DNA of 50,773 nt, filler included, from Perkinsus olseni (GCA_013115125.1; 2 parts of 2 records of this genome joined end to end with filler, not necessarily neighbours in it), one strand, 5' to 3'; positions 4,381-50,603 are shown, numbered from the whole stretch's first letter. Made by a program: numbers and translations. The notes: generated by a model from the letters alone, not told the origin.

Positions 4381-7300
4381 ATGAGTTCGTCACTCCCCAA
4401 GTCGTCTTTTCGCTCTGATGAGCCGTTGCTGATGATATTCGACGACTTCCTCACAGCAGAGGAGTGCGATAGGGTTACGAAACTGTCCTTGAGGCAGGTT
4501 GAAGGTAGTAAGATTCGGGCATCGATCTTGTGTGTGTGAGATAAAGTCCAACGCCTACGACAGTACGGCTCAGTTAGACTAGTAGCACCGACGTACCTTT
4601 CTGAGGGGGATTAGTTCAGCCTGGTAAATAGGCCTTGTTTACCGATCTTGTCCTCGGTTTTCTTGCTTTATTTGATATTATAGACAACTTGGTTGCAAAT
4701 ATTCGCAAACTTAGGCGATCACGGAAACTGAGGCTCACACTATTCCCGCTGGCTTTATCATTTCGCCACTCCTACCATTCTATGCTTTTTTTCCACTCGG
4801 ACTTCAGCTTGATTGGGAGGGCTAATTGTGTAATAGCGGAGGTGAAGAGATGGTATGATTGTTTGTACAATTATTATTCGCTAGTATCACTTTCATAAGT
4901 ATCATAATTATTTTCATCTTCGTATTTCCCGAGTTTTTCCGGCGCAGGTTGTCCGATGGTTTAATATCTTGGAAATGGTAAACATATCGGGTATCTTATG
5001 TAGGCACCATGTTCACGAGTAAGCTCAGGATACCTTTGCCAGTAAAAGAGGAAGAAAAGATACTCCCCGAGGACGTTGAGTTCCTTCAGAACGTAATACT
5101 GGGGATTTGCGGCGACCTGGGTCGTGGCCTGCGTATTAGACGCTCACTGATCAGGTCGAGTGAGGGGGTAAGTATAGGGCGTTTCGCGCCACTGCGTTGG
5201 GCTTCACGTCAAAAATTCCCCCATGGTACATTTTTGCATGTTGTAATTCCAGGATAGGCATGGAAAATCTTACCTCGAACGCTGTGGCTAACAAGCGTTT
5301 TTTTTCGCGTCCTTTGCACTGATTGGTGAATCGGCGGGGGGACGTGATATTTTCGCTGATTACGGTGAAGCATTATGATTCGTTTTTTACTGTAGTAGTG
5401 CAACTGCGCAACTATGGAAGCTCAGCTCAGCTCAGCTTGTGGCTTGTGAATGGCTTCATCGGTGTAGTTTGAGTTGGACAGAAGCTCAGGATTCCACCAG
5501 CCATTTTCCACTTGAGTTGACATCTATGCGCACCAGTCAGTTGAGAGCATTGTGATGAATTGTCATGGTATCTTAGGTCGAAGACCGTATCGGACAAATC
5601 TGCCAATGCCCACCGCATGAAGGTGAAGTCCCTCTGGTCACGATGTTGACGCCCCCAAGCAAACAGCCCGCGAACGATGGAGAGAGACGACTTCATTTGG
5701 GGCTGCATGTTGGTAATATTCTTGCGGCTCGATTTCGTATCCTTTCGAATGTGTTGTTTTCTCCTGGCGTATTTTTACGTCGCTAGTTTGTGAAAAAACA
5801 GTAATGTAAAATCAAATTCATTTTTTCTGAAAGTCGCTTTCTGTCAGATACCAACGGTAATCGACCTTTTCGGTTTTGTACAGCTATCATTTACCTCTCG
5901 GATGTCTCCGAGGGTGGAGAGACCGTTTTCCCGGTAATATCAGCGTGATGGGGATTCTTGCGTGTCGATAGAAGCTTCCCTAATACATCGCGCTGTACAT
6001 GGTCTAATCGTTACGTCTCTCAGCTCAGAAGCCTCCGCCGACTGTCACGCCAATTCTGCACAATAGAGGCTTTCAAAAATCTCCCTGTCGCCAGCCGCTG
6101 CGGTCTTCCTGTGTGTCACCAATGTGCGGTTCGCCCTCGTTGCCTGTTTCTGAAAGGAGTGGTTTCGGAAAAATTAGAAAGGCGTGAAAAACGTTTCGCC
6201 GTCTCTCGTAATAGAGAATGATCCAGACAAAAGCTAGCATAGATTCGGAATCGCTGGGCTTTATTTTTGCTCGCAAATATTACCGCCAGAATCCTTGCTA
6301 TTATTTTATAACGATTCGGCGCCTGTACTTCAGAAGGACATCTTCTCCGTCAGGTCAAATCGACCAGCCCCGAGTTGGTGATGGGCGCTCAGATGCTCCT
6401 CAAAAGTGGCATAGACCATCTTGATAAGGTCGATGAGAAATCGCCAGAGGGTATCCGAGTTGTTGCTGGTATCTTACGCACCGCGAAGATTTTTGCGAAA
6501 CCCCTTCTTGGACCTCAGATATGCTGGAAACTGCGACATCAGCTCCCGATGCTTTCACGGTTCAAGCCAAAAAAGGAAGGTTGGTTTTGTTTTACACTCG
6601 AGGAGACCGTGGAGAGATCGACCCTCTCAGCTGGCACGGCGGCGCAACTGTAAGAAAAGAGCGCTCCTCCTACTGGACCGCTTGTGTGAGCTGGCGCTAT
6701 GTCCCATGGATTTGCCTCCGACTCGCCCGATTCTCCGGCGACCATGACCATCAATGAGCTCGGAATGAGTGGAATTGGGGACAAATCCATGGGAGATACC
6801 GCCAGATCACTGTATAAATTAACTCTTGGCCGGCAAAAAAAATCTAAAAATCATTTTTCTCGACTAGAAGTGAGAGCTGTTCTACGAAACTTACACCAAT
6901 CGAAAGCTCTACAAATTTCTGACCTAATGAGCTCTGAACCCCGGTATATTCATGCTTCAAATCATTTAGATCAGCTCTGAACCATTTTTTTTGACCGGAC
7001 TGTATGCAGTGGACTCGCTACTCAGTCAGCTGGAAGTAGTGAGTGTTGATATGGCGTTCACGGATTGAGGGGGGGGGATGACGCATTTCACTACACCCCA
7101 TTGCGAGGGAAGAGCGCGTGAAGCATGGAAGGGTTCACACTGTACTGTATGTGGAGATGGAAAGGCAACGCTGAAGGAATAGCTACGTTTGTTTTCGCAG
7201 GTTCAATGCAGTGGCGGGAAGCCGAAGATGAAGTGGACGTTACAGAAATTCAAGGAGATTCCAGTTGATGCAAGAGAGAGTGGAGAGCGGTTACGCCAAT

Positions 7301-23760: not shown

Positions 23761-23834
23761 TACTGGAACCGAGAATCGAACTCGGGACCTACTGCGTGTT
23801 AGGCAGTCGTCATAACCAACTAGACCATTCCAGC
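23761..23834 (-). tRNA. tRNA-Val(AAC)
   Basis: Full cloverleaf: acceptor GCTGGAA/TTCCAGT, anticodon arm ACTGC-CTAACAC-GCAGT, T-arm CCGAG-TTCGATT-CTCGG. Confidence 0.95.
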
Positions 23835-23934
23835 AAGCTGAAAAGACATCTCATTCCATGGTCCCGTTGAGCTCCGTGTTCTTAAACGCCCGTCTGTTAT
23901 ATAGCCCGTGCTCAGCATCAAGACACCTAAACGC

Positions 23935-24005
23935 GGGCTGAGTCGAGAATCGAACTCGAGACCTCTCGCACCCGAGCGAGAATCATACCACTAGGCCACA
24001 CAGCC
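23935..24005 (-). tRNA. tRNA-Pro(CGG)-like; 6-nt anticodon loop, so probably a pseudogene or a sequencing error
   Basis: GGCTGTGTGGCCTAGTGGTATGATTCTCGC-TCGGGT-GCGAGAGGTCTCGAGTTCGATTCTCGACTCAGCCC. The loop is one base short and the acceptor stem has a T:T mismatch. Confidence 0.75.
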
Positions 24006-24134
24006 ACAACGTAGTGTATATAGCAGGGGCTTCGGTGTCCCAGAACCAGTCGCTAGAAACCGTGCGCAATCGGAGACGCCGTAGCAACTCCAAAACGGCG
24101 CATGATCTAGCGCGTATTTCGAACGATGGTGCGA

Positions 24135-24208
24135 TACTGGAGCCAAGAGTCGAACTCGGGACCTACTGCTTGTGAGACAGTCGTAATAATCAGCTAGACC
24201 ATTCCAGA
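24135..24208 (-). pseudogene. Degenerate tRNA-Val copy (anticodon reads CAC)
   Basis: Aligns with 23761-23834 but the D-loop GG is lost and the stems carry several mismatches. Confidence 0.8.
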
Positions 24209-26399: not shown

Positions 26400-26608
26400 T
26401 AACAGTATGATGTTGTGTCTTCCGCAGCCAGCGGCGGCCTTTCCTTGACATTGAGATGATATAAGATTGACATCCTCTCATCTTCGAGTTTGACTGCGAC
26501 AACTCAAGTTGAGTTGATTCATCCAACAACACCACATCCTATCAACATGACATCTTCTTCAGCTATGGCTGTGTGAGGCGATGATCGCCTCCCAGCGGGA
26601 GGCTCCCG

Positions 26609-27643
26609 CTAAATCAGGGATGGTGCGTACTCTCGACGAGCAGCGGTATCAGCTAGAAGTGCTAGATTAGTGGACTCCCGCACCAGATAGACCTTCGTCT
26701 CCGTCGCATCATCCTTTTCGTATATAAGTGATATCAAGTCCTTGCTTTCCGCACATATCCTGGCTGGAACCTTCGATTGATCTTGCGAGGCTGGGATGGG
26801 CGACGCATCGGACTGAAGCCGATCTGAACCATGACGCTCCCCTAAAGTGTAGCAATCTCTGTAGCTTCTCGCGTAAGTGTGCTCATCGACATCACCGCCG
26901 CGGCTGACTTTGGCCGCAACATAGTTCGTTAGTTCGAAACCACGGACGGTGGACCGCCCCTCTATTCTATGGTCGAATACAATAGCGGCAGTCTGTTCCC
27001 CAACATCTGTCCCTGAGATTTCGACCTCCATACAGGGATGATCATCAGACTCAGTATCATCTTCGTTGGGCCATCTGAGATATTTCCCAGGTGTAATTAC
27101 CACCGGGAGTACTGTATCCGGGTCGGTTAGGATCAATTTGATCTTAGTGAACTCACCGGATTTCAAGCGCAGCTTGACACTTGCCGAACCTTCTTCAGTG
27201 CCAGGACATATTGAAAAATGTTTTTGGTCGAACATGCCGAGATGCGGGAATCGTGTCGATACATACGTTAAAAACTCTCTCGGTACTAGATTTACGAACG
27301 GGCGTTTCCTGCGCAGGGCATAGCATTGGCTGTCTGATTCTCCCGAAGCTCTACTTCCTTCACCAGGCTCAACAGGCATGCTTATGGGGGCCAAGTGGTA
27401 GTTGCTGACGAACAAAACTTGCCCGTCATAGTCTTCAAATCTGAGGTCGACTTGAATGCCGATCTTTGGCGCCTTCACCATAATCATAAACCCTGCAAGG
27501 GTGGGTATCTCAGCACAAGTCCCGAGCATCCTGTAGAACCCCAATTGTAGAGGCACAGTCGAAGGAAGGCGACGAGGAGCGATAGTAGCGCCGACGACGT
27601 TGCTGATGGTCATGACCGCGGCGATCGTCGTGGCAGAGACCAT
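26609..27643 (-). CDS. Intronless hypothetical secreted protein (~344 aa)
   Basis: Longest ORF in the window. ATG at 27643 gives the signal-like MVSATTIAAVMTISNVVGA. The two halves begin similarly (LQLGFYR / ITPGKYL). No family recognised. Confidence 0.8.
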   Translation of the reverse strand: MVSATTIAAVMTISNVVGATIAPRRLPSTVPLQLGFYRMLGTCAEIPTLAGFMIMVKAPKIGIQVDLRFEDYDGQVLFVSNYHLAPISMPVEPGEGSRASGESDSQCYALRRKRPFVNLVPREFLTYVSTRFPHLGMFDQKHFSICPGTEEGSASVKLRLKSGEFTKIKLILTDPDTVLPVVITPGKYLRWPNEDDTESDDHPCMEVEISGTDVGEQTAAIVFDHRIEGRSTVRGFELTNYVAAKVSRGGDVDEHTYARSYRDCYTLGERHGSDRLQSDASPIPASQDQSKVPARICAESKDLISLIYEKDDATETKVYLVRESTNLALLADTAARREYAPSLI

Positions 27644-28956
27644 CTTTACACGCAAGCTAACAACTAACACTCGCCCGATTGCGGTGAAACTGTAAGATTC
27701 CCGAGCAACACTTGCACACAACCCCTGTCCCCGAGTTCGATACTTGCGAGCTGCTCTATCGTACAACTAACTCAGGGACTCGATTTCAAACGCCCCTTTA
27801 CGTTTAATGATAAACTCGGGAACGGGTTTTAAGATTCAGAACACGGGCTGGCTGAATCACGAGGTCTAAGGTGTGATTCTTCTGCGCTAAAGAGCCCCCA
27901 AAAGATTCAAATATGCCGGTATATTTGTGGACTAACTGAGCCCCGCCCTACAGCGAAAAAGGTAGCAATTCGCTACCTTGGGAAAAGAGAGGGTCCGATT
28001 TTCAGTTCCTTCACGGAAGGAACTAACGGTTCACGGAAGTTACAAGATTCGGCCGGAAAATTCGATTCGAGCGGACAGGAGTCCCGTGGGCGAGCGCAAC
28101 CTATAAGCATCTGCTGATGTAACTGTAAGGTTATATATAGCCTATATAATATAGGGGAAATTTGCCCAAACCTTATTAACCAGCTCGAGGACCAGACTGT
28201 ATACGGATACCAGGTGCTAGTACGGTCGGAACACGTACCAAGCAATAGATATACGATTGTAGATTGTAATGATTTCTACATAAACTATGGCGTTGGGTTA
28301 TTCAATAGCTTACCTTGGGGCACGCTTTGCGATACCTTCGGTCGGCGTCTATCCGTACACAAAAGGGGACAGGATTACGTGCGGTCGGTATGCGTGCCAT
28401 TATAGCTGTGCCTCGCGTGGCGAGGCGGTGGTTAGCCTCTTGAATAGCTCTATAGCTATTGGGCTATTGAGCTCAACCTCTTGAACCTCTATAGCTCTTG
28501 AGCTCTTATAGCTCGCCTCTTGAGTTCTCCCGGCAGTGGTCTTAATAAAGCGGACGCCTCGCTGCATTCGCATGCGAGTACTTCCGAGAGTACACATTAG
28601 TCCATGAAGTCCACAAGCGTGATAAAGCTTCAAAACGACAATATATGGGCTGTGAAGATACAAAACCCGAGTAGGGTCGTCTGCAGCGCAATCCAGAATC
28701 TGAAATTTCGGATTATAGGACATGAGATCTGATCTCATGCCGTAGTATCACCAACGCCTTACCTCAGCTCAATAATGTCTCTCGTTGGAACAAAATAGGG
28801 TATCCCCAACATTGTGGTCCAATCACTCACTACGGGCTTAAGAGCGTACTAGTAAGGCGCGAACTGTAGAGAGAGTACAAGGAAGTATAGGAAGGAGCTC
28901 GTCAGAGCAACACAACGATACAGCAAATACAGACAGGCGACGATGATCAGTCTGAT

Positions 28957-37931: not shown

Positions 37932-38738
37932 TCAGTTGGTCTTGGTGAGAGCCAGGCTGCTCCTGCCGACCGCCACGTACATCGTCTTGTCAGTCGCAAA
38001 GACGACCTGTGATAGATCAAAATCTTTCCAATTCTTGTTGGGGCAAGCAGACTGCATCTTGTTGCGGATGTGACTCAGCGTGCCGAGTCCGAGCGGCTCC
38101 ACAGCGTAATACGTGTACTGCATACCCTGGTCCCTCGGGGCCAGCTTGAATAGGAGGCGAGGTGTTCTTACCCCACCACACTCGGCCGATATACCAACAA
38201 CACCATCCGAACGTACTTGATAACGGAGCTTGAGATGAGGTGCTTCGGGCTCGGCGTATTCGAAGACGCCCGGGGTGAGGCTGTGAGCAACCCTTATGAA
38301 CTCGATCTCTTCGTTACGGGAGTTGGTGGTGAAGCTGTCGCCGGTCGTGTAATGCAGAGTGGCCAAGTCTCTGTCCTGGATACCAGCAAGCGGTTCGTCA
38401 GCCTTCGCCACACCAGCCTCTTTCAACTGCCATGCGATATTACCATAGCAAGTCCGAGCGGACCTGCCGAAGTCCACGTGATAGATATTATTCTCGATGC
38501 GCTCCAGGGAATAGTGGCCACTTGAAGCCCAGGGCCAGCGGGGAGGCAGCCGGTGTGGCGACCCGGACCCAGGCTCGGCCGGGGCCCACGCGGAGGACCC
38601 AATCATCGTTTCACCCTCCTCGTTCACATCGAAGGTTATGTTGTAGACACCACCTCTGTGGACGAACCTGCCGACATCCTGAGCCGTAGTGATGACCAGA
38701 AGTTGAGCGGGGGTGAGTCAAGTTGAGATGAAGTTCAT
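37932..38738 (-). pseudogene. Lineage-specific secreted-protein gene with an in-frame TGA at codon 7
   Basis: ATG 38738: MNFIST*LTPAQLLVITTAQDVGRFVHRGGVYNITFDVNEEG..., then open to the stop at 37932. The TGA is at 38720-38718. Confidence 0.7.
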
Positions 38739-39121
38739 GGATGAGAAATTGGATATACTACGAAGAAACGCGGTGCTGAAGGAAAGCGAAAACCTCGGCC
38801 GTACGATGAAGAACCGCCACGTGAGCCACGATTGACGTGACGTCACGTCACGTCTCGTGTTATGTCACGTGACACAGGATGAGACGTCAGTGGTGGTGCT
38901 ACGCTCCGCCTATGTTTATGTGCGCAGAGTAGTCTGAGCTTGAGGTCTATTTCAAGATCCCTCGTTGAACGTGTGAGTCACAAGCTCCCTTGTGGTCCAC
39001 GTATGAGTAAAAAGACTGCAACACAAGAGGTGGCGGGAGGACGTCACGGGACAGCACGCGAACGCGGTGCCGCCATCGGCCTAGCTAATCCGTTCGACTC
39101 GGCACTACAAGCTGGCCTAAG

Positions 39122-39559
39122 ATGTTGGTTATCGGGACTGCAGTGTTGCTGCTGCTCATCACCTCCTTGGGTGTTGTTGTGCTCGGTGGTATTGAAACTC
39201 CATATGAGAGCCCCTCTACTGCTGGAAGGATACTGTATCCCTTCAAAGCTGGCTTTGAGAACAACAATAATACGATGGTGAAGTCGGTGTATTTCGATAA
39301 GACCTTGGGCGGCACTGTTACCTTCAACCGCGCGTCACCCCAAAGCCTGCCCAATCCATCTTATGCGTGTGGTTACACTGCGAACCAGGGCCCAACGTGG
39401 ATTACCCTTAAGCTCAACAACGGTTGTCTATCTCTCATTCGTGATTCTCGTGGCTACTATGACACAAGCATTCTCAATCACATGGACCTCTGGCCAGACT
39501 ATAGTGTGCTGGCTGTTCCCACAGCTGTTGGACTCCCCGACGATTATTATGAAGTTTGA
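39122..39559 (+). CDS. Small secreted or membrane-anchored hypothetical protein, 145 aa (copy A)
   Basis: Intronless ORF with a hydrophobic N-terminus and two Cys. Length and frame are conserved with the paralog at 41696-42133. Confidence 0.8.
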   Translation: MLVIGTAVLLLLITSLGVVVLGGIETPYESPSTAGRILYPFKAGFENNNNTMVKSVYFDKTLGGTVTFNRASPQSLPNPSYACGYTANQGPTWITLKLNNGCLSLIRDSRGYYDTSILNHMDLWPDYSVLAVPTAVGLPDDYYEV

Positions 39560-40230
39560 TGATATCATGGTAGATGGTACATAGAAGAGCTCCACTTGAG
39601 TAACTCGAGCCGTCTTGGCTCTACTGCAGTGAATCGGGTCTATTACCTTTTTCTAGTTGTTGTTGCTATCACCCGACTCTGCCCGTATTAGTCGCTTCAG
39701 AAGCGAACTTCTGCCATTATTTTCTTTTAGGCAGTGCCCGGTGTTGAATGATTCGTGGGAGCACTAACGATAGTAGGAACAAGCCGAGGTTGACGAATAC
39801 GATAGGCCGGAGAGAGTCCGTATACGAAAAGGCGCAACCACGAGAAGAGCTAACTTGTTAAGATCGATCAACTTCGTATAGGTACGCAAATACAATGGCG
39901 CGTCGAACCCTCACGGCTCTCCTAACAACTCTAACTCCTGGCGAGTGGCGACTTGATTACTGAGCTCGCCACCAGCCCGTCCGGCGGCTGTTATAAACTA
40001 GTCTGACACGGCATATAGCCAGGTGGTTTTTTTGAGTCCCGCAATACCGCCTGCTGCGGGAGAATTACTCCCGTAACCTTAGTTCATCGCCTTAGTCTCA
40101 AGTCCCTCAGTTGTGGTTAAACTTTCTAACCGTGGTCGAGTACTAGTGCCATGCTTCAATGGGTTGCCATCCCTACAGTCACGCTGTCTCGAGATAGTCA
40201 TTCGTCCCTCAGTCTGTTCGCCCCTCCCGC

Positions 40231-40434
40231 ATGGCTGAGGCGACCTCAGTGAGGTCCCTCAGGATAAACAGCCTTCATATTTTCGTCGGCTCCGTGGTGT
40301 CTTCGGCGGTCGTTTCCTAATAGGCCTGCATATTATACAACACATAGTGAAAGGCTTCGTCTGTGGCGGTGGTGATAGCGGCTTAGCCGGGACGCCTATT
40401 GACTTTCGTCTTGAGAGATTACAGTGACCTACAG
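40231..40434 (+). pseudogene. BT1 transporter exon-1 pseudogene fragment
   Basis: Near-identical to 42702-42902 but with a +14-bp scar just after the ATG, further indels and no downstream exons. Confidence 0.9.
40235..40256. repeat. 22-bp 7+8+7 scar (target CTGAGGTC, 1 mismatch) with an unscarred paralog
   Basis: CTGAGGC-GACCTCAG-TGAGGTC. The paralog has only CCGAGGTC at 42706-42713. Confidence 0.9.
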
Positions 40435-41096
40435 GTAGCTCGCTATGGCTGGGCCGAAAGATCTGTCGAACCAGGGAAAGGATCCTTCGTCTTACTGTAT
40501 GCCACCTTTAGCGACAACCGTTCACGAACTCGTAGTTAGCTTCATCGATAGTGTCAGGCGTGAATATAAGACGACTGGCCTCCCATTCACTTGCGGGATC
40601 AGATCGAACCACCAGTGGAAAGATACTCGACGAGTTACTGTTTTGGTCCTGCCAAGCAATGCTACATGACAGGAAGTGATTTATAGGTGGGAGCATGACG
40701 GAATCCTAGCTGTACGCAGGACCACTTGCAGCTTCCTCGACCCCAACCCAAACCCAGCCGCCGTGGCGTGCGTTTTCTTGTTTATGTTAGTGCGCGGCCG
40801 CTAACAATATTTTCCTCGGCGGAGGCGTGTCCAACCAGGTTCAACCTTTCAGACAGTGGGATATGGATCTCATTGCCGTTGGGGAAATTCTTGCCGATTT
40901 TCGTGCGAAAGATAATTTGTAGAAGTCTGCACGCCCTGTACGGAGGTTGCTCGGCGTGTCAATGAAAATTGTGAAACGTGCACCATTTTAGCAGCGAAGC
41001 GTAGTTCTGTCCCCTTCGTGCGCCGCGTCGCGTCAGTCGTACGTGCGAAATGATTGGTTCCTGTCGTGAATGTTTTCGTTTGGCATGGAATTACTC

Positions 41097-41328
41097 CCGG
41101 ACCCAGGCTCGGCCGGAGCATACGAGTAGAAGATCTATTCTGTGCTACTGTATATTTCCGTTCTACTGTAGAACCCAATTAGAGCTTCATCCTCCTCATT
41201 CACACCGGAAGTTATATTGTAGACAGTGTCTGCTAGACTCCATCTCTGTGGACGAATTTGTCGACCTCCTGAGCTGTAGTGATGACCAGAAATTGAGCCG
41301 GGAAGCGCCAAGTTAAGACGGAGTTGAT
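41097..41328 (-). pseudogene. Truncated paralog of the 37932-38738 secreted gene
   Basis: Translates INSVLTWRFPAQFLVITTAQEVDKFVHRDGV*. The start codon is ATC, there is an internal stop, and the 3' part is missing. Confidence 0.8.
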
Positions 41329-41695
41329 TGTTGAGAGATTGGAGATAACTACGAAAAAGGCCGACGTTGAACGACAGCAAAATTCTTAACCGTGCGATGG
41401 AAGCTTAGATGGGAGAGGCCCGAGGCCTGTGTTGTATTCTTCTTACTCATACGTGGAACACAAGGCCAAAGGGAGTTTGTGAGATGGATCTTATGAAAGA
41501 GCTATTGCCCAGACTACTCTGCACGCATAAACATAGACGGAGCGTAACAGCCTGCCCGTCACCGTGTCACCAAGTGGTAACGGGGCGGCGTCACGCTCGG
41601 CTTCGCTCCGCTGTATGAACGCCGCGCTGCCGCCATCGGCTTGGCAAATCTGCAGGCGAGTTCTTTGACTCGGCAATACGAGTTGGCCTTTAATA

Positions 41696-42133
41696 ATGGT
41701 CATCTTCATCACAGTGCTGCTGCTTATCGTCATCTCCATGGGTGTTGTTGTGCTCGGTAGTATTAAAACTCCACCGGAGAGCCCCTCTACTGCTGGAAGG
41801 ATACTGTATCCATTCAAAGCTGGCTTCCAGAACAACAATCATACGATGGTGAAGTCGGTGTATTTCGATAAGACCTTGGGCGGCACTGTTACCTTTCGCC
41901 GCGCTTCATTCCATAGCCTGCCCAATCCATCTTACGCGTGTGGTTACACTGCGAACCAGGGCCCAACTAGTATTACCCTTAAGCTCAACGACGGTTGTCT
42001 AGCTCTGGTTCGTGATTCTCACGGCTACTACGATAGAAGCATTCTCACTAAGATGGACCTCTGGGCAAATTATAGTGTCCTGGCTGTTCCCACAGCCGGT
42101 GGGGGCCTCGACGATTATTATTATGCAGTTTGA
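41696..42133 (+). CDS. Small secreted or membrane-anchored hypothetical protein, 145 aa (copy B)
   Basis: Paralog of 39122-39559 with identical blocks ESPSTAGRILYPFKAGF, MVKSVYFDKTLGGTVTF and LPNPSYACGYTANQGPT. Confidence 0.8.
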   Translation: MVIFITVLLLIVISMGVVVLGSIKTPPESPSTAGRILYPFKAGFQNNNHTMVKSVYFDKTLGGTVTFRRASFHSLPNPSYACGYTANQGPTSITLKLNDGCLALVRDSHGYYDRSILTKMDLWANYSVLAVPTAGGGLDDYYYAV

Positions 42134-42701
42134 TAATATGACATCGTCCCGTGTCCGAGCGAGAAGATGAATATCATCAATCTCATGGCACATGATGTAT
42201 GAGAGACATCACTTGAGTAACTCAAGCCGTCCTGGCTCTGCTGCTGCTGCCGCTGCAGTGAATAAGGTTTAATACCTTCTTCTAGTTGTTTCGCTATTAT
42301 CCGACTCATATTCGTCCCTTCCGTCTTGATAATCTATCCAACAGCTCAGCTGGTATCGCGTTGGTCTACTCTCTTCGTTATTCTTCCGTCTGTAACATAG
42401 ACTCAAGCAACTCCGGAAGATCTCCTCTTGACTGACGACTTGACTAGTGAGTTCCAAGCCACAAGCCCGTCCGAAGGCTGCAATATGTAGGTCTGGCACC
42501 GCATCTGGCCCGGCAATCCGGCCCGCTCCCATAGTCTCAGTTGACCGTCTTAGTCCCTCAGTTGTGGAACCAGTAAGTTGTTAAGTTGTTGACCTCTTGA
42601 AAGTAATTTAGCCTAGTACTAGTGTCACGCTTCGACTGGTTACCGCCTCTACCGCAGTCTTCCGAGAGGTAACCGTCCCACAGTTTGTTCCCCCCTCCCG
42701 C

Positions 42702-44981
42702 ATGCCCGAGGTCCCTCCGGATGAACAGTCGTCTTATTTCCGTCGGCTCCGTGGTGTCTTCGGCGGTCGTTTCCTAATAGGCCTGCATATTATACAACAC
42801 ATAGTGAAAGGCTTCGTCTGTGGCGGTGGTGATAGCGGCCTAGCCGGGACGCCCATTGACTTCGTCTTGAGAGATTACAGAGTGTCTGGTGCTGACCTAC
42901 AGGTAACCCGATATGGCTGTGCCGAAACACTCTCGCACCGGGGACGGAATCTTTTCATCTTTCTTTATGCCACTTTCAGCGACTACCGTTGTCGAACTCG
43001 TAGTTAGCTTCACCGCTAGCGTCAGGCGTCGGTCTGAGACGACCGGCTCCCACTCACTTGCGGGATAGACCGAACGACGGAAGGGTACTTCCTCTTTTCT
43101 CTCAGGTATACCGGAGTGCAGTCGGCATCCCTTGGAGTGTAAAGCCTCTTATAGGTCTCCTTAGTGACCGTCTACCTCTTCTCACCTTCCACAAGCTCCC
43201 TTACATGTTCCTATCGACAGTGGTCGCCGTCGTTGCGATGGCCGTCCTCGCCCAGAAGCCCTCAGCACTCATCATCGCCTTGGTCTGTTTTTTTCTCATT
43301 TTCCTGCAATGCTCTGTGTGCGATCTCCTGTCCGAGGGGATGTATGCTGCTAAATTGAAGAAGCACCCGAGCTGTGGTCCCGACTTGGTCACCTTCGTCT
43401 GGGTCGGTATATCCATTTTTCGAACCTTCAGTGTCGTACTAGCAGGCCCTCTCATAGACACCATCGGCCCCTTCTCTGTCTACTGGATTGCCATACCATT
43501 CGCCGCGCTCCTCCTGCCGGTGGTCGTTTTCAATCTACTCGGAGAGCCTCGTGTGACTCCCGAGACTGATTCCGATGCGAACAGGAAGCCTGTATTCTGG
43601 GAGATGACGTGTTTGTCACTCGTCACTGGGCTAGGCGGTCTTTCTCTGGCGATCTACTCGATCATTGAGACGCAGGTGAGGTCGTGGGTTCAAATCCCAC
43701 GGCATGTATTCCTAGGTCTTCAGTGAGGAAATGCCACCATCGCGTCAGCCTGTCGTAATCGACGACAAACAGTTGCATCGCTCCGCCGAGCATCGAATTC
43801 AGTTACATCGCAAGTGCCTGGCGGCTGGTGTCCTCGGGCTTGCAGTGGTGTCATTATTCACTCTACTCACACGCCCATTGATAGCAAAGCAGAACCTCTT
43901 CATGTTCATACAGAACTGTGTAGCAACGGATGCTTCGGCCTTCTTGTGATTTCGAATATGCTATTCATATAGTAAGGATAACAGCGACACTTTTTATACC
44001 GTCAGTTCTCAACACGACCCGCGGGCGGGCTAGTCGGAGCATCCAGCAGTCTCTCTCGGGGCTGCGAAACTACTACGACAGCGCGATTGAACGGAATCGA
44101 GTTGGTGCGGTCAGATGCACTTCGGAACACACGGCGCTTCCTTCTACTTCTTCACTGACACTCCCGAACAATACCCCGAGGGACCCCACTTCGACACGGT
44201 TTTTTACACGACAACTCTAGGTGAGTGTCCCGGCGTAACGCCGGCGGCGTTCCTTGAGACGGTTGAGTGTCACCCCCTGGCCCCTTCAGGAGTTGTCGCG
44301 TCCGTCTGCAGCCTGGGAGGGATGTACCTCTACAATCGTTACATGAAACATTGGCACTACCCGTGGATCTTCTCGTTCTCCAGCATCTTATGTTCAACTG
44401 TTGGTCTACTCAACATCGTCGTCTATACTCGCTTCAACGTTACCCACCTCGGAATTTCTGATAGAATTTTCGTAATTTCCTCCTCGGCACTAGGCATCGT
44501 GCTCGGTGAATTCAACTGGATGCCCGCTATTGTCCTCCTTAGCCAAAGCTGCCCCCACGGTTTGGAGTCCACCATGTACGCTTTGCTCGCCGGGGCAAGC
44601 AACCTGAGCGCTAATTTGTCCGGCTACTTCGGTGCTATGATTCTCGATCAACTCGGTGTCACCCCTGACGGTTCCCCTGATGAAGGGTCTAAGTTTTCAC
44701 GTCTATGGGAGGCGAGTCTGCTGTCGTGTGTTGCGCCATTGGTGCCGTTGGTGTTGGTACGGTGGCTAATACCAAATGCCCGGCAGACCGATTCATTGTT
44801 GATCGAGGAGCCTTCGGATCCTTGCCACGACAGCCTGTGGCGGAGAATAAGGTCCGCGTGGCGCGGAAGGAAAAGTGCCGGCAGTTTTGTAGAGATAAAA
44901 ACTGAAGAGCTCGATACGTTGACGGACGGCGAGAGTGATTGTAGTGAGGAGGTGAGCAACAGGGGCCTACTCTCTTGTTGA
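42702..44981 (+). CDS. BT1-family folate/biopterin (pteridine) transporter, MFS, multi-exon
   Basis: QHIVKGFVCGGG, IPWSVKPLIGLLSDRLPL, CSVCDLLSEGMYA, FYFFTDTPEQYPEGPHF, WMPAIVLLSQSCPHGLESTMYALLAGASN, plus many hydrophobic helices. Confidence 0.93.
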
Positions 44982-45275
44982 GCGGGAGTCGCAGGGGTCG
45001 CCGTAATTTCGAGTTTGATACGGTTGGGCTGCGAAAGAGTTACTTGGTCTCAGGTTGTGGATGGTCCAAGCGCATTAGAATAGCCCATGGATCGATGAAT
45101 CGGATAATATCCATGTCAATATTTATTTCATATGGTTTCATGCCTCTTCTGAGTTGTGTTATCTGAGTAATCGCGAAGGGTTGGTTAGAAGGGACAAGTC
45201 ATACAGTTCATAACGAGGAAATCAGCGGCAATACAGTGCTCCACATTAATTTGGAATATCGTTTAAAAATTAAAC

Positions 45276-45297
45276 CTCGTCAATGACGAGTCGTCAT
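45276..45297. repeat. 22-bp 7+8+7 scar (target CTCGTCAT, perfect)
   Basis: CTCGTCA-ATGACGAG-TCGTCAT. Confidence 0.9.
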
Positions 45298-45370
45298 CGA
45301 GCCATCCAAAACGATTATTCTGACCAATCAAAAACGAGCGCTGAGCGGGTTTCCCGGATATGCAAGCACA

Positions 45371-46060
45371 CTTCGCCACTCGGGCTGTATCATGACCCCT
45401 AGTTTAACTTTTCGAGAGCATCTTGATGGCAGACTAACGCTCGCGAAGCAGGCTGGAAATGTTGCAATCCGCCAATGTGGTGCTGTTATGGGAAAGAGAC
45501 AGGGCGGCCCTGTCAGAGCCTATCGGTGAGTGTTCGTAGAGATTTATAAAAGGATCATCCTCCCAATTATTCTTTATGCTCACGGGGTTTGGGGCTGTTT
45601 CATTGGCAATAGATGTACCAGAGACAAAATTGATTCAGTAGGATCGGCTTTCCTCAAAAGAGCACTCAGAGTCAGAATGAGCACCTCCCCGAGGTCGTTG
45701 TATATTGCGTCAGGTGTTATGCCCCTTTCGCATCTTGTAACGAGAAGAATAACCATCACACAGATGTGTAGATCCGTCGCGTTCGTGTTCATTACACCAT
45801 TACTCACCTGTAGATTTACATGAACTTCTCTTCCTGAGATCGGCAACACATTACCAACAACGACCACCAACCAGGAACAAGCTGCAATTGTCAGACTTTC
45901 AGACACTTTAAGTATGCTAACTTAGCATTGCTGAGTATCATACTTAGCATTCCGACAGCCGGAGGGACTGCAGCGACAAGGCTCAATTCCTTAAAAATGT
46001 GAATCACGCTCTTTCCAGAACAACAAGTCGCGATGAGTGTATACACTGATTGATCTCAGT
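45371..46060 (+). mobile_element. Decayed non-LTR retrotransposon: RT thumb region and RNase H start
   Basis: GCIMTPSLTFREHL...IYKRIILPIILYAHGVW...LKRALRVRMSTSPRSLYIASGVMPL, and VYTD*S near 46038 (VYTDGS-like). Stop codons present. Confidence 0.7.
45914..45935. repeat. 22-bp 7+8+7 scar (target ATGCTAAG, 1 mismatch)
   Basis: ATGCTAA-CTTAGCAT-TGCTGAG. Confidence 0.8.
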
Positions 46061-46723
46061 TCATGGATAATCACAACCCGTTCAGAGTTTGGTTAGCCAA
46101 TGATTGGTGTTGATACCCAATTGTTGTGGCCGTGGCGTTGTGTTAAGCCTGTCCCCCTTTCGTAGCTTATTGTTGGCACGAAGCTTGTCACGCCGCAGCT
46201 GCCGGTGTAGACTATTCTTGTATTGTATGTTCTATAGTTACTTTCTATACTTCTTCTACTTGTGTTGAGATGACTGGGACGCCACAACACTCTACGAACG
46301 ATGAGGGCAACAACAATTGACTGCCAATCACTTCGTGTTCCCCGACCGAAGAGCCCGACTGAACAGGATTGGAGAGCCAGCTCGTTGGCTGGTAGTCTTG
46401 AACATTCAGGAACCACAGCCGTTCCGTTGGATGCACACGAACAATTATAAGAGAAGAAAGATTGAAACTAAAGTTGTATGTGCCACAAATAGATCCAAGC
46501 ACTCCGTGAATCGATAAAAAGTTTTAATTTAAAACCCCCGTCCCGAATCCAGAAGGAACACTTCCTGGCAGTCACTGCCAATAACGGTGAGGAAGGCGCA
46601 GCCGAGACGTCGAGCCTTGAAACCATTATCCGCGACTGTCACAGCTGGGCGTTCGCGTATCAGGAAAGAGAGAGGCTAAGGAGGTTATTGGGCACCCGAC
46701 CTATGATAAGCCTGCTATCAGGA

Positions 46724-46745
46724 CCCGAACCGTTCGGGCCGAACG
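46724..46745. repeat. 22-bp 7+8+7 scar (target CCCGAACG, perfect)
   Basis: CCCGAAC-CGTTCGGG-CCGAACG. Confidence 0.9.
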
Positions 46746-47494
46746 AGAAGCAGAAAGACCCACAAGGGATACTACAGGGGAGACCAGGGCATTCAGTTCG
46801 TTATCTACACGCCCCAAACCAGCCGATCACTGTGGAAGCTCTTTCACCGACCGTCGAAAAGGCAGAGTTCGGGTCCACGGTGCGCTGCCTCGGTGTGCCG
46901 CCTCAAGGCAGAGTTTGTTACAAGCCGACTCGCCTTTCCGTCTCTCATAAGGCTCGACCGAAACGCAAACCTACAGTCAAGACGAATGGCATGGCTGCAG
47001 TGCAGCGGCTGCCCCACCTAGTAAATTCGAAGCGACGTGAACCTCTGCGTCCACGATGCGCAGCAAGGCGCCCACAAAGCAAGTCGGGAGTTCATTCCTT
47101 ACACGCGGAACAGTAGTATTAAGTTCCAGTTCGATCAGAGCCACCAGCGGTGGCCTACTACAAAAACAAGAATAAGTGACCCCGTGAAGTGGTTCGGGGA
47201 GATGAAGATTGCCCTTCTCATCTCCCCCTCGGTGTTTTTATTCTATGAGAAAACCCCAAACCTATCGTGCCTTATCAGGCTGGGCCCGAATGACACACCA
47301 AATTTCCTACGCCAAAAGGTTCTATGGGTTGTATCGGGAAAGCCGCTGAAGTAGTGTCCAGTGGACACTCCTTGAGAAATTTCATGCGCCAAAATGTCCC
47401 CGGATGAGCCGACTCGGATGATGAATCGACGAGTTCATGTTCATCCTGGACACCCGGGATGTACACAGTAACATTCCTCCAGTTGGGGTTTCCG

Positions 47495-47516
47495 CCCTTA
47501 CGGTAAGGGCCTTACC
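47495..47516. repeat. 22-bp 7+8+7 scar (target CCCTTACC, perfect)
   Basis: CCCTTAC-GGTAAGGG-CCTTACC. Confidence 0.9.
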
Positions 47517-47870
47517 CAGCCGGAACCGGAACCCTTCTGCGCCGAAATTCCCCGCATGATAGAACGGTTCTGCCATGCGGGGCATTTCTACTAGAACCTA
47601 TTGAGCCTTTGATGTGGGTCCATGGCAACCACTACCATGTAGTACACCCAACAATCAAACGTGCTTTATCGGTCTTGGTCTACTTTCGAGGTGCAAGGTG
47701 AACCGGTGGACTGCTTCGAGAAGGGAAAACCAGCCCACATCCACGCAAAGCAAGACACAAGTGAGCGAGTAAGGTTCACAGGCAGTCCACCGTGCGCAAA
47801 AGGTCTATCTCGTCTTGTTCAGCTTAGAATGGAGTGTCTAAAAGACAACGGGACACACGCATCACCAATG

Positions 47871-47947
47871 CAAGATACTACCACCCCCCACCCCCACTAC
47901 AAGAGTCTTGTAGTGGGGGTGGGGGTGGTAGTATCTTGTAACAAGAC
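47871..47947. repeat. 68-bp odd-centred palindrome; long scar (target TACAAGAC)
   Basis: Arms of 34 and 33 bp around G47905. Left is TACAAGA+G; right is ...TCTTGTA+ACAAGAC (47941-47947). Confidence 0.85.
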
Positions 47948-48070
47948 CCCGGAGCACCCAACTTGGGTGACCCAAGTCACCAATACAGAGCGTACCACCC
48001 ACACTCCTACTACCGGACAAAGGAAAGCTGGGATTATTGGCAACTATTGTCGGATAGAAACTATCCATTA

Positions 48071-48092
48071 CCCCAATGATTGGGGCCCAATC
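48071..48092. repeat. 22-bp 7+8+7 scar (target CCCCAATC, perfect)
   Basis: CCCCAAT-GATTGGGG-CCCAATC. Confidence 0.9.
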
Positions 48093-48121
48093 TGAGATTG
48101 ACAATCTCCCATAGGTTTTTC

Positions 48122-48187
48122 GCACATATTATATGTGCAAAGTGTGTCCCGTTAAATATGTGACAAATATAACGGGACACACTTTGC
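48122..48187. repeat. Double palindrome; long scar (target about CACATATA)
   Basis: GCACATAT-T-ATATGTGC overlaps a 51-bp palindrome GCAAAGTGTGTCCCGTTA...TAACGGGACACACTTTGC. Confidence 0.8.
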
Positions 48188-48714
48188 GAGTGGATGGGGT
48201 CGCAATCAAATGCTAACAGAATGATGGACGCACATGAGAATCAAGCGACTGCTATTATAGCATATCGGGGCCCGATATGCACAACAGGGAGTTGCTACGG
48301 TCATAGGGAGGCCGATAGTGAGTCACTATTAGTCACTGTCGAGTCAACAAAATGAGTGAATGAGTGACCCCCCTTGGGAAGGCCAAGCAACGTCGATGAG
48401 TCATCGACGATGACGACGTTATGGTTGAGCGGATGAAAGCTGAGTTACATATCTAATCACCCAGATTCAAAACCATGAACATCCATGTGTAGAAGTTCTA
48501 TAGTGGCGTTTGCTGAGGGGCGCGCCAGGATCGATAAATTCAGGGGAATGATAGATAGCTGGGGTTTTACGGAGCATGAAGTCGGGCAAAGTAGTGAGCA
48601 ACAATCGACCATAAAGCAACAACTTGAGATAGTTAGGGACTACGTCATAGTTCGTATGGTGTCAACCTTATCCGACAGTTTGCAAAGGGCACTGCGGAGT
48701 TCTAGACAGAGGGA

Positions 48715-49002
48715 ATGTATAAGAGCGGTAGTTTCGCGCAGGAACAATGGGCATTCCTTCAATTACTCTCCGGTCACTCTACCTTATCGCGAGGATACAC
48801 ATATAGATCCGGCTACTGTGCGGGCGCTTATGATGAGAATTGCTCCTATTGCAATGTTAGAGAAACCAATGAACAGCTGCTGCTCAAGTGTACTAGACCA
48901 GATCGGTTAAGTTTGCGTCCGAATTATGTGAACGGAAGCGGCACTCTTGGGCAAATAGCAATCTGTGTGAACCGATGTACTGCTATGGCAGACACTCTGT
49001 GA
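48715..49002 (+). mobile_element. Non-LTR retrotransposon C-terminal zinc-knuckle (zf-RVT-like) remnant
   Basis: FLQLLSGHSTLSRGYTYR...CSYCNVRETNEQLLLKC matches the LxGH...CxxC..ETxxHxxxxC pattern with H replaced by Q. Confidence 0.65.
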
Positions 49003-49193
49003 AAGGCTAACCTTGAAATGTACGACAGATGCGTAATACGGGGGGGGGGGTTATATTAGATTCAGGTGCCCGTAAGAATGTCAGCTTTCGGTTAGAGGGA
49101 GTCTAAGCCAGGGTATGGACGTTTTGGGTCTCGGTGATGATGCTTGTGGTCGACAGACTGTGCGATGCGCTAGTGTTTCGTGGTCGTGCACAG

Positions 49194-49215
49194 CCCCCGC
49201 TGCGGGGGCCCCGCA
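49194..49215. repeat. 22-bp 7+8+7 scar (target CCCCCGCA, perfect)
   Basis: CCCCCGC-TGCGGGGG-CCCCGCA. Confidence 0.85.
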
Positions 49216-49419
49216 GCTGTGAGAAGCGGATTCTGCCGGGAGGAAAGAACATTCCCCAGCTGACGATGACCTCGCTCTGAGAGCAACGTTTTTTGGCTTG
49301 ATGAACAGGGCCTATTTAACAGGCTGAACTAATCCCCCTCTGAAAGGTACGTCGGCGTTAGTCAAACTAAGCCATACTGTCGGCGTTGGACTTCAAACTC
49401 ACACACACGGCCCGGTGGA

Positions 49420-50603
49420 ACCCGAAGGTGCTGCGGTTGTAGCCCATCTACGGCATCTTCAACATGACAGCTCTATCAGTAATACCACTGTCGTTGCAAG
49501 ATCAGTCACTAGGCGGCGCTCTCATGAAACGACTCGAAATGCACGTATCCGCCGTGGTGAAGTTAGCGATCATATTCCACAGTTCTTTACCTTCGCATGC
49601 CAAAACCCGACTCGAACACAAGACAGCACAGGATTGGGCTACAATCTAGACTCAGCGGCTCGATAAGACAGATATACAGCAATATCCATATACAACCGCC
49701 GCCGACCAAACACGACAGGGAACTATGCCGATATACATAAATGAATCGGACGCTGAACCTGCCCCTCAGAGAGACTAAAGGGGAAAAAATTGGTATGCTA
49801 CCGCACACGCGCAACAGTTACCGGTCAGGGCATCACAGCTTGCTTGGACGAAAGTTCAGATCGCGCACGAGGGTCTTGCAATGGGCTGACACTTGCCGCT
49901 AGCTGAGACCGGCGGAGCTGTGTGCCAACGTGAGGTAACGATTCCGGCTCGAACTGTACCTCCAAGCACGTGTGCTTCCCAAGTATGTATTTCAGATTAT
50001 CTCAAACTTACATCATTTACCATCGATCGTCGTTGACTTTTTTGCCTCAATATCGTGGTGTTGCCTCCGCCGCCCGGCCCTTATCATTTTGGTTATCACT
50101 CTGGACTGTCTATGAACACGAGTGAACTCGTGACGAGTACGTCTGCACTCCTGCGACTGGTCAGCGGTGGTATCACAGTTGTTGATTGATCAGCTCGTTT
50201 CTGCTAACGTGCCCTCCCGCTCCCTGAGTTCGAAATCGCTGAGTCGAGCGTAGTGTATACTCATACCGTATGAGTCATACGGAAGTTGGCCGAGTTAGTC
50301 TACCATCGAGTAAGACCGCCGTCCCATGGAGACCCTCCTCGCTGCCCTCTCAGCCTACCACGGTATTTGACAAACTGTTGCCGAACCCCTTCGCCGCCCG
50401 CTCCACTCGGACTTGGGAGAACACTAGACACATTGGACATAGAGGTAAATGATAACAAAGACTATACGAGGCCCAGAAAGACTTATGAGGGCTCAATTAA
50501 GGAGGCGGACGAAACTCAGCCGTTTCATAACCGCAACCGTTTCAATGCACTCGCCTGCGCACGCCGGGCACTTAGAACATCGGAGCGACAAAGAGCCTAT
50601 TAG
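49420..50603 (+). mobile_element. Highly decayed Penelope-like reverse transcriptase remnant
   Basis: Motif relics in the expected order: IYSNI (~49675), EGLAMG* (~49870), LDTLDIEV (~50425), ARRALRTS (~50560). Many stops and frameshifts. Confidence 0.45.
50260..50281. repeat. 22-bp 7+8+7 scar (target CTCATACG, perfect)
   Basis: CTCATAC-CGTATGAG-TCATACG. Confidence 0.9.

What the first reader, a model, noticed from the sequence alone, without database searches (positions are those of the whole stretch)
40231..42713. Internal control: a +14-bp scar distinguishes the dead BT1 copy from the live one
The intact BT1 gene reads CATGC-CCGAGGTC-CCTCCGG (8-mer at 42706-42713). The duplicate reads CATGG-CTGAGGC-GACCTCAG-TGAGGTC-CCTCAGG (40235-40256). 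The scar is therefore a derived insertion that replaced one 8-bp site after the duplication. A +14 change frameshifts the gene at codon 2. Inference: because 14 is not a multiple of 3, this repair outcome always disrupts coding frames, which would explain why scars are absent from intact exons.
Basis: partly seen in the sequence, partly recalled or inferred. Interest (0 to 1): 0.75.

Follow-up and report, generated by a model that had tools for sequence, protein, structure and literature searches.

The report
Transposon excision scar in BT1 pseudogene
A broken duplicate of a folate-transporter gene in a shellfish parasite (Perkinsus) carries a 14-base insertion shaped like the scar a cut-and-paste transposon leaves on exit; comparison with the intact copy shows the scar is a later mutation, but it probably hit a gene copy that was already dead.

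Summary
The +14 indel is real and derived: the P. chesapeaki ortholog and the spliced intact copy have the short form. The scar is T[1-7] + revcomp(T) + T[2-8]. The window holds 17 perfect and 38 near-perfect copies of this geometry against 0 and 0-3 in simulations, at word length 8 only. Flank hairpins of the hAT type, opened and annealed through the inverted 8-bp target duplication, reproduce it with 1 mismatch. The same duplication holds a reciprocal +14 pair in the unit carrying the live gene, plus +13 and +42 variants. Diverged contigs lack young scars but keep this one. So the scar neither marks the dead copy nor is always +14. The duplicate also lacks exons 2-5 and has +1 and -12 lesions, so the scar probably did not kill it. 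Exon avoidance (0 of 38) holds but is partly circular. No transposase or filled allele was found. This scan noted the scar class before on other pieces of this genome; my 10 paper searches found no report of it.

The parts
40235..40256 (+). 22-bp scar T[1-7]+revcomp(T)+T[2-8], +14 relative to the paralog
   Evidence: spanned without a gap by a 4%-diverged contig of run X11 (table 8, record 7)
42706..42713 (+). empty 8-bp site in the intact BT1 gene (codons 2-4)
   Evidence: colinear with the outgroup P0001
40231..40434 (+). exon 1 of the BT1 duplicate; +14 scar, +1 at about 40404, -12 at 40424/5; stop codons at 40318-40323 in the shifted frame; no exons 2-5 follow
40284..40434 (+). near-identical tract between the paralogs (2 substitutions in 147 nt; 99-nt identical run); probable gene-conversion tract that stops about 30 nt short of the scar
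42702..44981 (+). intact BT1 (folate/biopterin transporter family) gene, 5 exons (42702-42902, 43106-43675, 43803-43919, 44115-44220, 44290-44981), 561 aa
   Evidence: Pfam PF03092; four GT..AG joints in runs X7 and X8; open frame; 72% to P. chesapeaki P0001
38562..40627 (+). tandem duplication, unit 1 (holds the BT1 fragment)
   Evidence: 16-24% divergence
41096..43089 (+). tandem duplication, unit 2; detectable homology ends 16 nt before the intron-1 acceptor
41219..41240 (+). reciprocal +14 scar in unit 2; empty site at 38643-38650 in unit 1
39692..39712 (+). 7+8+6 (+13) scar variant in unit 1; empty site at 42315-42322
   Evidence: MAFFT shows the gap; the second aligner placed gaps differently here
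41125..41174 (+). +42 event in unit 2: left arm, 28 unexplained bases, inverted word, right arm; empty site at 38591-38598 (tentative)
44230..44251 (+). perfect scar inside the 69-nt intron 4 of the live gene
45276..45297 (+). perfect scar; diverged runs X10 and X11 carry the empty site
   Evidence: tables 5, 5c, 8
41443..41450 (+). empty 8-bp site in a solo-LTR-like repeat; another copy of the repeat in run X7 carries the +14 scar of this word
   Evidence: table 4

Best explanation
The 22-mer is the excision footprint of a cut-and-paste DNA transposon with an 8-bp target duplication that seals the flanks into hairpins (hAT chemistry; a MULE is possible). Steps: (1) the element inserts at T and duplicates it (inferred). 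(2) The transposase nicks one base into each flank and closes each flank as a hairpin (known for Ac/Ds-type elements; inferred here). (3) Host enzymes open both hairpins 8 or more bases past the tip, giving 3' tails revcomp(T) and T (inferred). (4) The tails are exact complements, so they anneal and are ligated, giving T[1-7]+revcomp(T)+T[2-8], +14 (the product is shown). At 40235 this happened after the duplication and before the split from the diverged lineage. It most likely struck a BT1 copy that was already dead, truncated in intron 1 (about 65% within this model).
For: Geometry fixed at 8/1/1; model output matches at 41 of 42 bases. Ac/Ds palindromes are centred on the complement of the base next to the element (PMC5873905, passages), and cleavage is at the 5' flanking nucleotide (PMC1978519, passages). 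Empty/filled pairs: 40235/42706, 41219/38643, 39692/42315, 41443 against X7 and 45276 against X10/X11. In the listed rows, 3 of 3 resolvable perfect scars (45276, 46724, 47495) are missing in diverged contigs and 0 of 4 decayed ones (40235, 46514, 46559, 46993). Prior death: no exons 2-5; 4 amino-acid changes in codons 2-10, at least 2 on the duplicate's branch by the outgroup.
Against: No transposase family hit in 410 of 432 window ORFs (the 22 left out overlap BT1 or its copy). No convincing TIR element with an 8-bp duplication. No filled allele among the rows shown. Only a weak target preference (T at position 2 in 27 of 76 symmetrised sites), unlike Hermes nTnnnnAn. Published Ac/Ds footprints are heterogeneous and mostly short. 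Against prior death: codons 15-67 show 0 replacements in about 110 sites, which could mean selection lasted until recently.
Confidence: 0.78

Rival explanations
1. Same scar origin, but the scar was the killing lesion of a then-functional full-length BT1 duplicate; +1, -12 and the loss of exons 2-5 came later.
For: 0 replacement and 2 silent changes in codons 15-67. The N-terminal ten codons are also variable against P. chesapeaki. The +1 and -12 lie in the near-identical tract and so look young.
Against: Silent sites are homogenised too: 2 observed against 7.5 expected, P about 0.02; 4 of 9 versus 2 of 37, Fisher P 0.009. That points to gene conversion. No trace of exons 2-5 upstream; homology ends inside intron 1.
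Confidence: 0.28
2. The element is a MULE, or a Merlin of unknown chemistry, rather than a hAT.
For: Muta1 forms flank hairpins and 8- or 9-bp duplications (PMC5499845, passages). Merlin ORFs occur in P. marinus, and Merlin duplications are 8-9 bp (PMC8101967, passages). Earlier notes report MULE transposases in this genome (unchecked).
Against: No perfect 9-bp scar in any geometry. Muta1 excision in yeast was >90% precise. The one-base offset is described for Ac/Ds; I saw no such statement for MULEs.
Confidence: 0.25
3. No transposon: short-range template switching in replication, or polymerase-theta-type snap-back synthesis at breaks, writes forward-inverted-forward copies.
For: No element found in the window. 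18 odd-centred palindromes with arms of 7-20 bases lie outside scars, against about 3.5 expected.
Against: These processes give variable lengths (recalled). Here only 8/1/1 is populated, and only palindromes with a 1-base centre are in excess; 0- and 2-base centres are at background.
Confidence: 0.1
4. Library or assembly artefact (fold-back chimeras).
For: Palindromic inserts can be technical (recalled).
Against: Scars decay with mismatches. The 40235 scar is in a 4%-diverged contig of another sample, other scars lie in ungapped contigs of X7 and X10, and the spliced intron 4 has the scar-containing length of 69 nt.
Confidence: 0.02

Closest known systems
Ac/Ds (hAT) excision footprints in plants, S. 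cerevisiae and C. albicans (PMC5873905, PMC1978519; passages read)
   Same: Palindromes centred on the complement of the base next to the element; hairpin opening and microhomology joining; 8-bp target duplication.
   Different: There the outcomes are heterogeneous and mostly short (28 types in 128 Candida revertants; longest P-insert 3 nt). Here one two-sided product using the full 8-nt inverted duplication dominates and is fixed in natural DNA at about 0.75 per kb. No element was seen here.
Hermes and Kat1 hAT transposases (PMC10368747, PMC4763223; passages read)
   Same: 8-bp duplication, hairpin-capped flanks.
   Different: The Hermes nTnnnnAn target preference is at most weak here.
Muta1 / MULE (PMC5499845; passages read)
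   Same: Flank hairpins; 8- or 9-bp duplication.
   Different: Mostly precise excision in yeast; no 9-bp scars here.
BT1 folate/biopterin transporter family (Pfam PF03092)
   Same: The intact gene passes the Pfam cut-off and is 72% identical to P. chesapeaki P0001 over the C-terminal part searched.
   Different: Nothing unusual; the upstream copy is an exon-1 fragment. Transport was not tested.

Membership tests
hAT excision footprint | 8-bp target-site duplication | tested here: met
   Only word length 8 is populated; empty sites hold one 8-mer. Inferred from scars, not from an insertion.
hAT excision footprint | [quoted passage not shown] | tested here: met
   Offsets 1/1 only; model reproduces the scar; only 1-base-centred palindromes are in excess.
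hAT excision footprint | a TIR-bounded element or hAT transposase in the genome | tested here: inconclusive
   None in this window; whole genome not held.
hAT excision footprint | a filled allele at a scar site | tested here: inconclusive
   None among the rows shown for 4 runs over 39800-50500; most rows were not shown.
hAT excision footprint | nTnnnnAn target preference (Hermes) | tested here: inconclusive
   27 of 76 symmetrised sites have T at position 2; not universal among hATs (recalled).
MULE excision footprint | 8-10-bp duplication with flank hairpins | tested here: inconclusive
   8 is allowed; 9 and 10 have no perfect scar; the MULE nick offset was not found in the passages read.
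Merlin | 8-9-bp duplication; excision chemistry | not testable with these tools
   Length fits; no footprint data in PMC8101967 ('footprint' 0 hits).
Dada | 6-7-bp duplication in small-RNA genes | tested here: not met
   Length 8, unrelated targets; none of the 38 scars starts in the tRNA matches at 23761-24208.
BT1 family (PF03092) | Pfam score above cut-off, intact spliced frame | tested here: met
end-joining pathway (c-NHEJ absent, MMEJ dominant) | Ku70/Ku80/Lig4 absent or inactive | not testable with these tools
   No genome; PMC8062965 has no statement on it in the passages found.

The most novel reading that the evidence does not exclude
Perkinsus repairs transposase-made hairpin breaks almost wholly by annealing the two opened hairpins, perhaps for want of classical end joining. 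Every visible visit of an 8-bp-TSD transposon then leaves a frame-breaking +14 mark that excision cannot undo. With 0.75 scars per kb here and 43-59 Mb of contigs in the near-identical runs, the genome could hold tens of thousands of dated, polarised marks: a major source of small insertions and of pseudogene lesions, made hit-and-run by few or vanished elements.
Probability: 0.3. Interest if true: 0.75.

Novelty: new variant of a known kind. Interest (0 to 1): 0.5.

Why it matters
Empty/filled pairs turn a sequence pattern into a shown mutation with a direction and a rough age, which the scar class needs. The chemistry is known from Ac/Ds and Hermes. What a specialist would not expect is one dominant two-sided product at this density in natural DNA. 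It makes testable whether loss of classical end joining fixes the outcome of hairpin repair, and it gives low-homoplasy lineage markers and a map of past transposon traffic. The gene-level story (a BT1 copy killed by the scar) is ordinary and probably not the order of events.

Tried and rejected
Whole genome: not held, so genome-wide scar counts, a transposase search and an end-joining gene census stay open. Protein search of plasmids: no match (irrelevant for a eukaryote). Second outgroup for the N-terminus: only P0001 at E<=1e-15. Transposase in the window: none in 410 of 432 ORFs >=55 aa; the 385-aa ORF at 26609-27766 resembles unnamed Perkinsozoa clusters at scores under 0.9, a lead only. 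TIR plus 8-bp duplication scan: 5 weak pairs, none convincing, no control run. Expression of the duplicate: X8 has no cover at 40157-40870 and X7 has some, which may be DNA; no holder is on record as RNA, so no claim. Scars 44230, 45499, 49194 and the pair 48315/48393 could not be resolved from the rows shown (one of that pair is implied missing in X10). A fourth exact 14-nt gap at 40054 lies in poorly aligned DNA and is not in the <=3-mismatch scar list; not counted. The 28 filler bases of the +42 event did not parse as nested scars by eye. Rfam: nothing at 39600-41200. Yu et al. 2004 (PMC321453) is not held; known only through citations. Ten paper searches (listings seen) found no report of these scars in Perkinsus; most subscription journals are not searched. 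Figures and supplements were not seen, and published Ac/Ds footprint tables may include this 7+8+7 form as one outcome.

Full report
Observation. The indel is as described. MAFFT and a pairwise alignment give one 14-nt gap between 40235-40256 and 42706-42713. The long form is T[1-7] + revcomp(T) + T[2-8] with T = CTGAGGTC and one mismatch. The window has 17 perfect, 30 one-mismatch-or-better and 38 two-mismatch-or-better copies of this geometry with unrelated words; 30 Markov simulations gave 0, 0 and 0-3. Among 42 geometries of word length 7-12, only length 8 with one base lost on each side has a perfect match. In the duplicate the reading departs at codon 4 and stops at codon 30.

Organism and gene. 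The best homolog is Perkinsus chesapeaki P0001 at 72%, so the window is from another Perkinsus (inference; earlier notes say P. olseni, which I did not test). The downstream copy scores as Pfam BT1. Contigs of runs X7 and X8 splice four GT..AG introns, and an X8 contig matches exon 1 with no difference. The joined frame is open for 561 codons. 'Live' is therefore supported as far as an intact, spliced gene goes; transport was not tested.

Polarity. P0001 aligns to the intact N-terminus with only a one-residue gap at about residue 10, away from the site, so the short form is ancestral. A second outgroup was not found. Four further pairs agree. In the same duplication, 41219-41240 is a +14 scar whose empty site is at 38643, and 39692-39712 is a +13 form with its empty site at 42315. 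A copy of the repeat at 41430-41549 in run X7 carries a 14-base insert that makes the scar of the window's 8-mer at 41443. Runs X10 and X11 carry the empty site of scar 45276. Contig lengths imply exactly 14 bases left out over scars 46724 (X11) and 47495 (X10, X11), and over one of 48315/48393 (X10).

Age. An X11 contig spans 39800-40302 with 20 substitutions and no gap, so the 40235 scar predates a split of about 4% and postdates a duplication of about 20%. In the rows shown, 3 of 3 resolvable perfect scars are missing in the diverged contigs and 0 of 4 decayed ones; 2068 rows of that table were not shown. This also argues against an assembly artefact.

Mechanism. Ac/Ds footprints are palindromes centred on the complement of the base next to the element, mostly with microhomology (PMC5873905, passages); cleavage is at the 5' flanking base (PMC1978519, passages); hAT, Transib, RAG and MULE all hairpin the flank (PMC5499845, passages). 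With an 8-bp duplication on both sides, opening both hairpins past the duplication yields 3' tails revcomp(T) and T, which are complementary. Annealing gives the 22-mer; the model matches the window at 41 of 42 bases. The product is shown; insertion, excision and the repair route are inferred. No transposase (410 of 432 ORFs), no convincing TIR element and no filled allele were found. MULE and Merlin remain possible (unchecked notes). Dada does not fit. Whether classical end joining is absent could not be tested.

Did the scar kill the gene? Probably not. P0001 finds only exon 1 upstream. Homology between the units ends 16 nt before the intron-1 acceptor, and exon 1 also has +1 and -12 indels. 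Codons 1-14 differ at 8 of 42 sites, like the flank (24%) and intron (18%), with four replacements, at least two on the duplicate's branch. Codons 15-67 differ at 2 of 147 (Fisher P 1e-4); silent sites are also low (2 against 7.5 expected, P 0.02). Truncation at birth plus a later conversion tract explains both halves. Selection lasting until the scar is not excluded (0 replacements in about 110 sites). I put it at roughly 65:30.

The frame argument. 0 of 38 scars overlap a set of 23 coding stretches (6,453 bp, 12.7%); circular shifts give zero in 0.9% of cases, mean 5.2. But I built the set from Pfam stretches and long open frames, only BT1 is verified by splicing, and a stretch is 'intact' only if it has no frameshift. 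One scar abuts a stop codon that I left outside the set. The parent insertion would be selected against anyway. What +14 adds is that this excision route cannot restore a gene. 'Always' is too strong: +13 and a tentative +42 occur in this one duplication, 18 one-base-centred palindromes lie outside scars against about 3.5 expected, and precise repair leaves no trace (Muta1 is >90% precise in yeast). Scars also sit in the live gene's intron 4 and in the non-coding part of its own unit, so they mark unconstrained DNA, not the dead copy.

Novelty. Known chemistry, unusual uniformity and density: a new variant of a known kind. Ten paper searches found no report for Perkinsus. Subscription journals, figures and supplements were not seen, and published footprint tables may hold this form as a minor outcome. 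The scan has noted the scar class on other pieces of this genome; I had stated the same reading before the first look-up. This finding's own contribution is the set of empty/filled pairs. Interest 0.5.

Noticed in passing
window 40284-40434 vs 42741-42902: Near-identical tract between paralogs (2 of 147) amid 18-24% divergence; probable gene conversion.
   Followed up: partly
window 40231-40434: The three indels of the duplicate's exon 1 sum to +3, but the shifted stretch between them holds stop codons, so nothing is rescued.
   Followed up: yes
window 41430-41549 and 38897-39025: High-copy TG..CA repeat with a 5-bp duplication (solo-LTR-like), absent in X10/X11 contigs; an inverted relative lies in unit 1.
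   Followed up: partly
window 47905, 4153, 24842, 48270, 38844: Long palindromes with a 1-base centre (arms 10-20), possibly one-sided hairpin footprints; 18 with arms >=7 outside scars against about 3.5 expected.
   Followed up: partly
window 11670/11691 and 48071/48087: Scars that abut or overlap, suggesting local re-insertion or hot spots; 14 of 38 scars lie in 45-50 kb.
   Followed up: no
window 26588-26609: A scar abuts the stop codon of the 385-aa ORF 26609-27766 (minus strand).
   Followed up: no
window about 39800-39860: Short repeat with very high depth in run X7; no Rfam match; joined to 42692 in some X10/X11 contigs.
   Followed up: partly
window 39089-39559 and 41669-42133: Both tandem units keep an open 155-codon ORF of no known family, so the duplication may have been retained for this gene.
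   Followed up: no
window 44949-45052: A further spliced joint near the BT1 stop codon in X7 and X8, so the C-terminus may be alternative to the one modelled.
   Followed up: no
window 46891-46915: X10 and X11 carry 127 other letters here; contents not shown; could be a small element.
   Followed up: no
window 23761-24208; 4530-4639 / 49304-49408 / from 19401: Tandem tRNA-gene duplication; a second dispersed high-copy repeat family.
   Followed up: no
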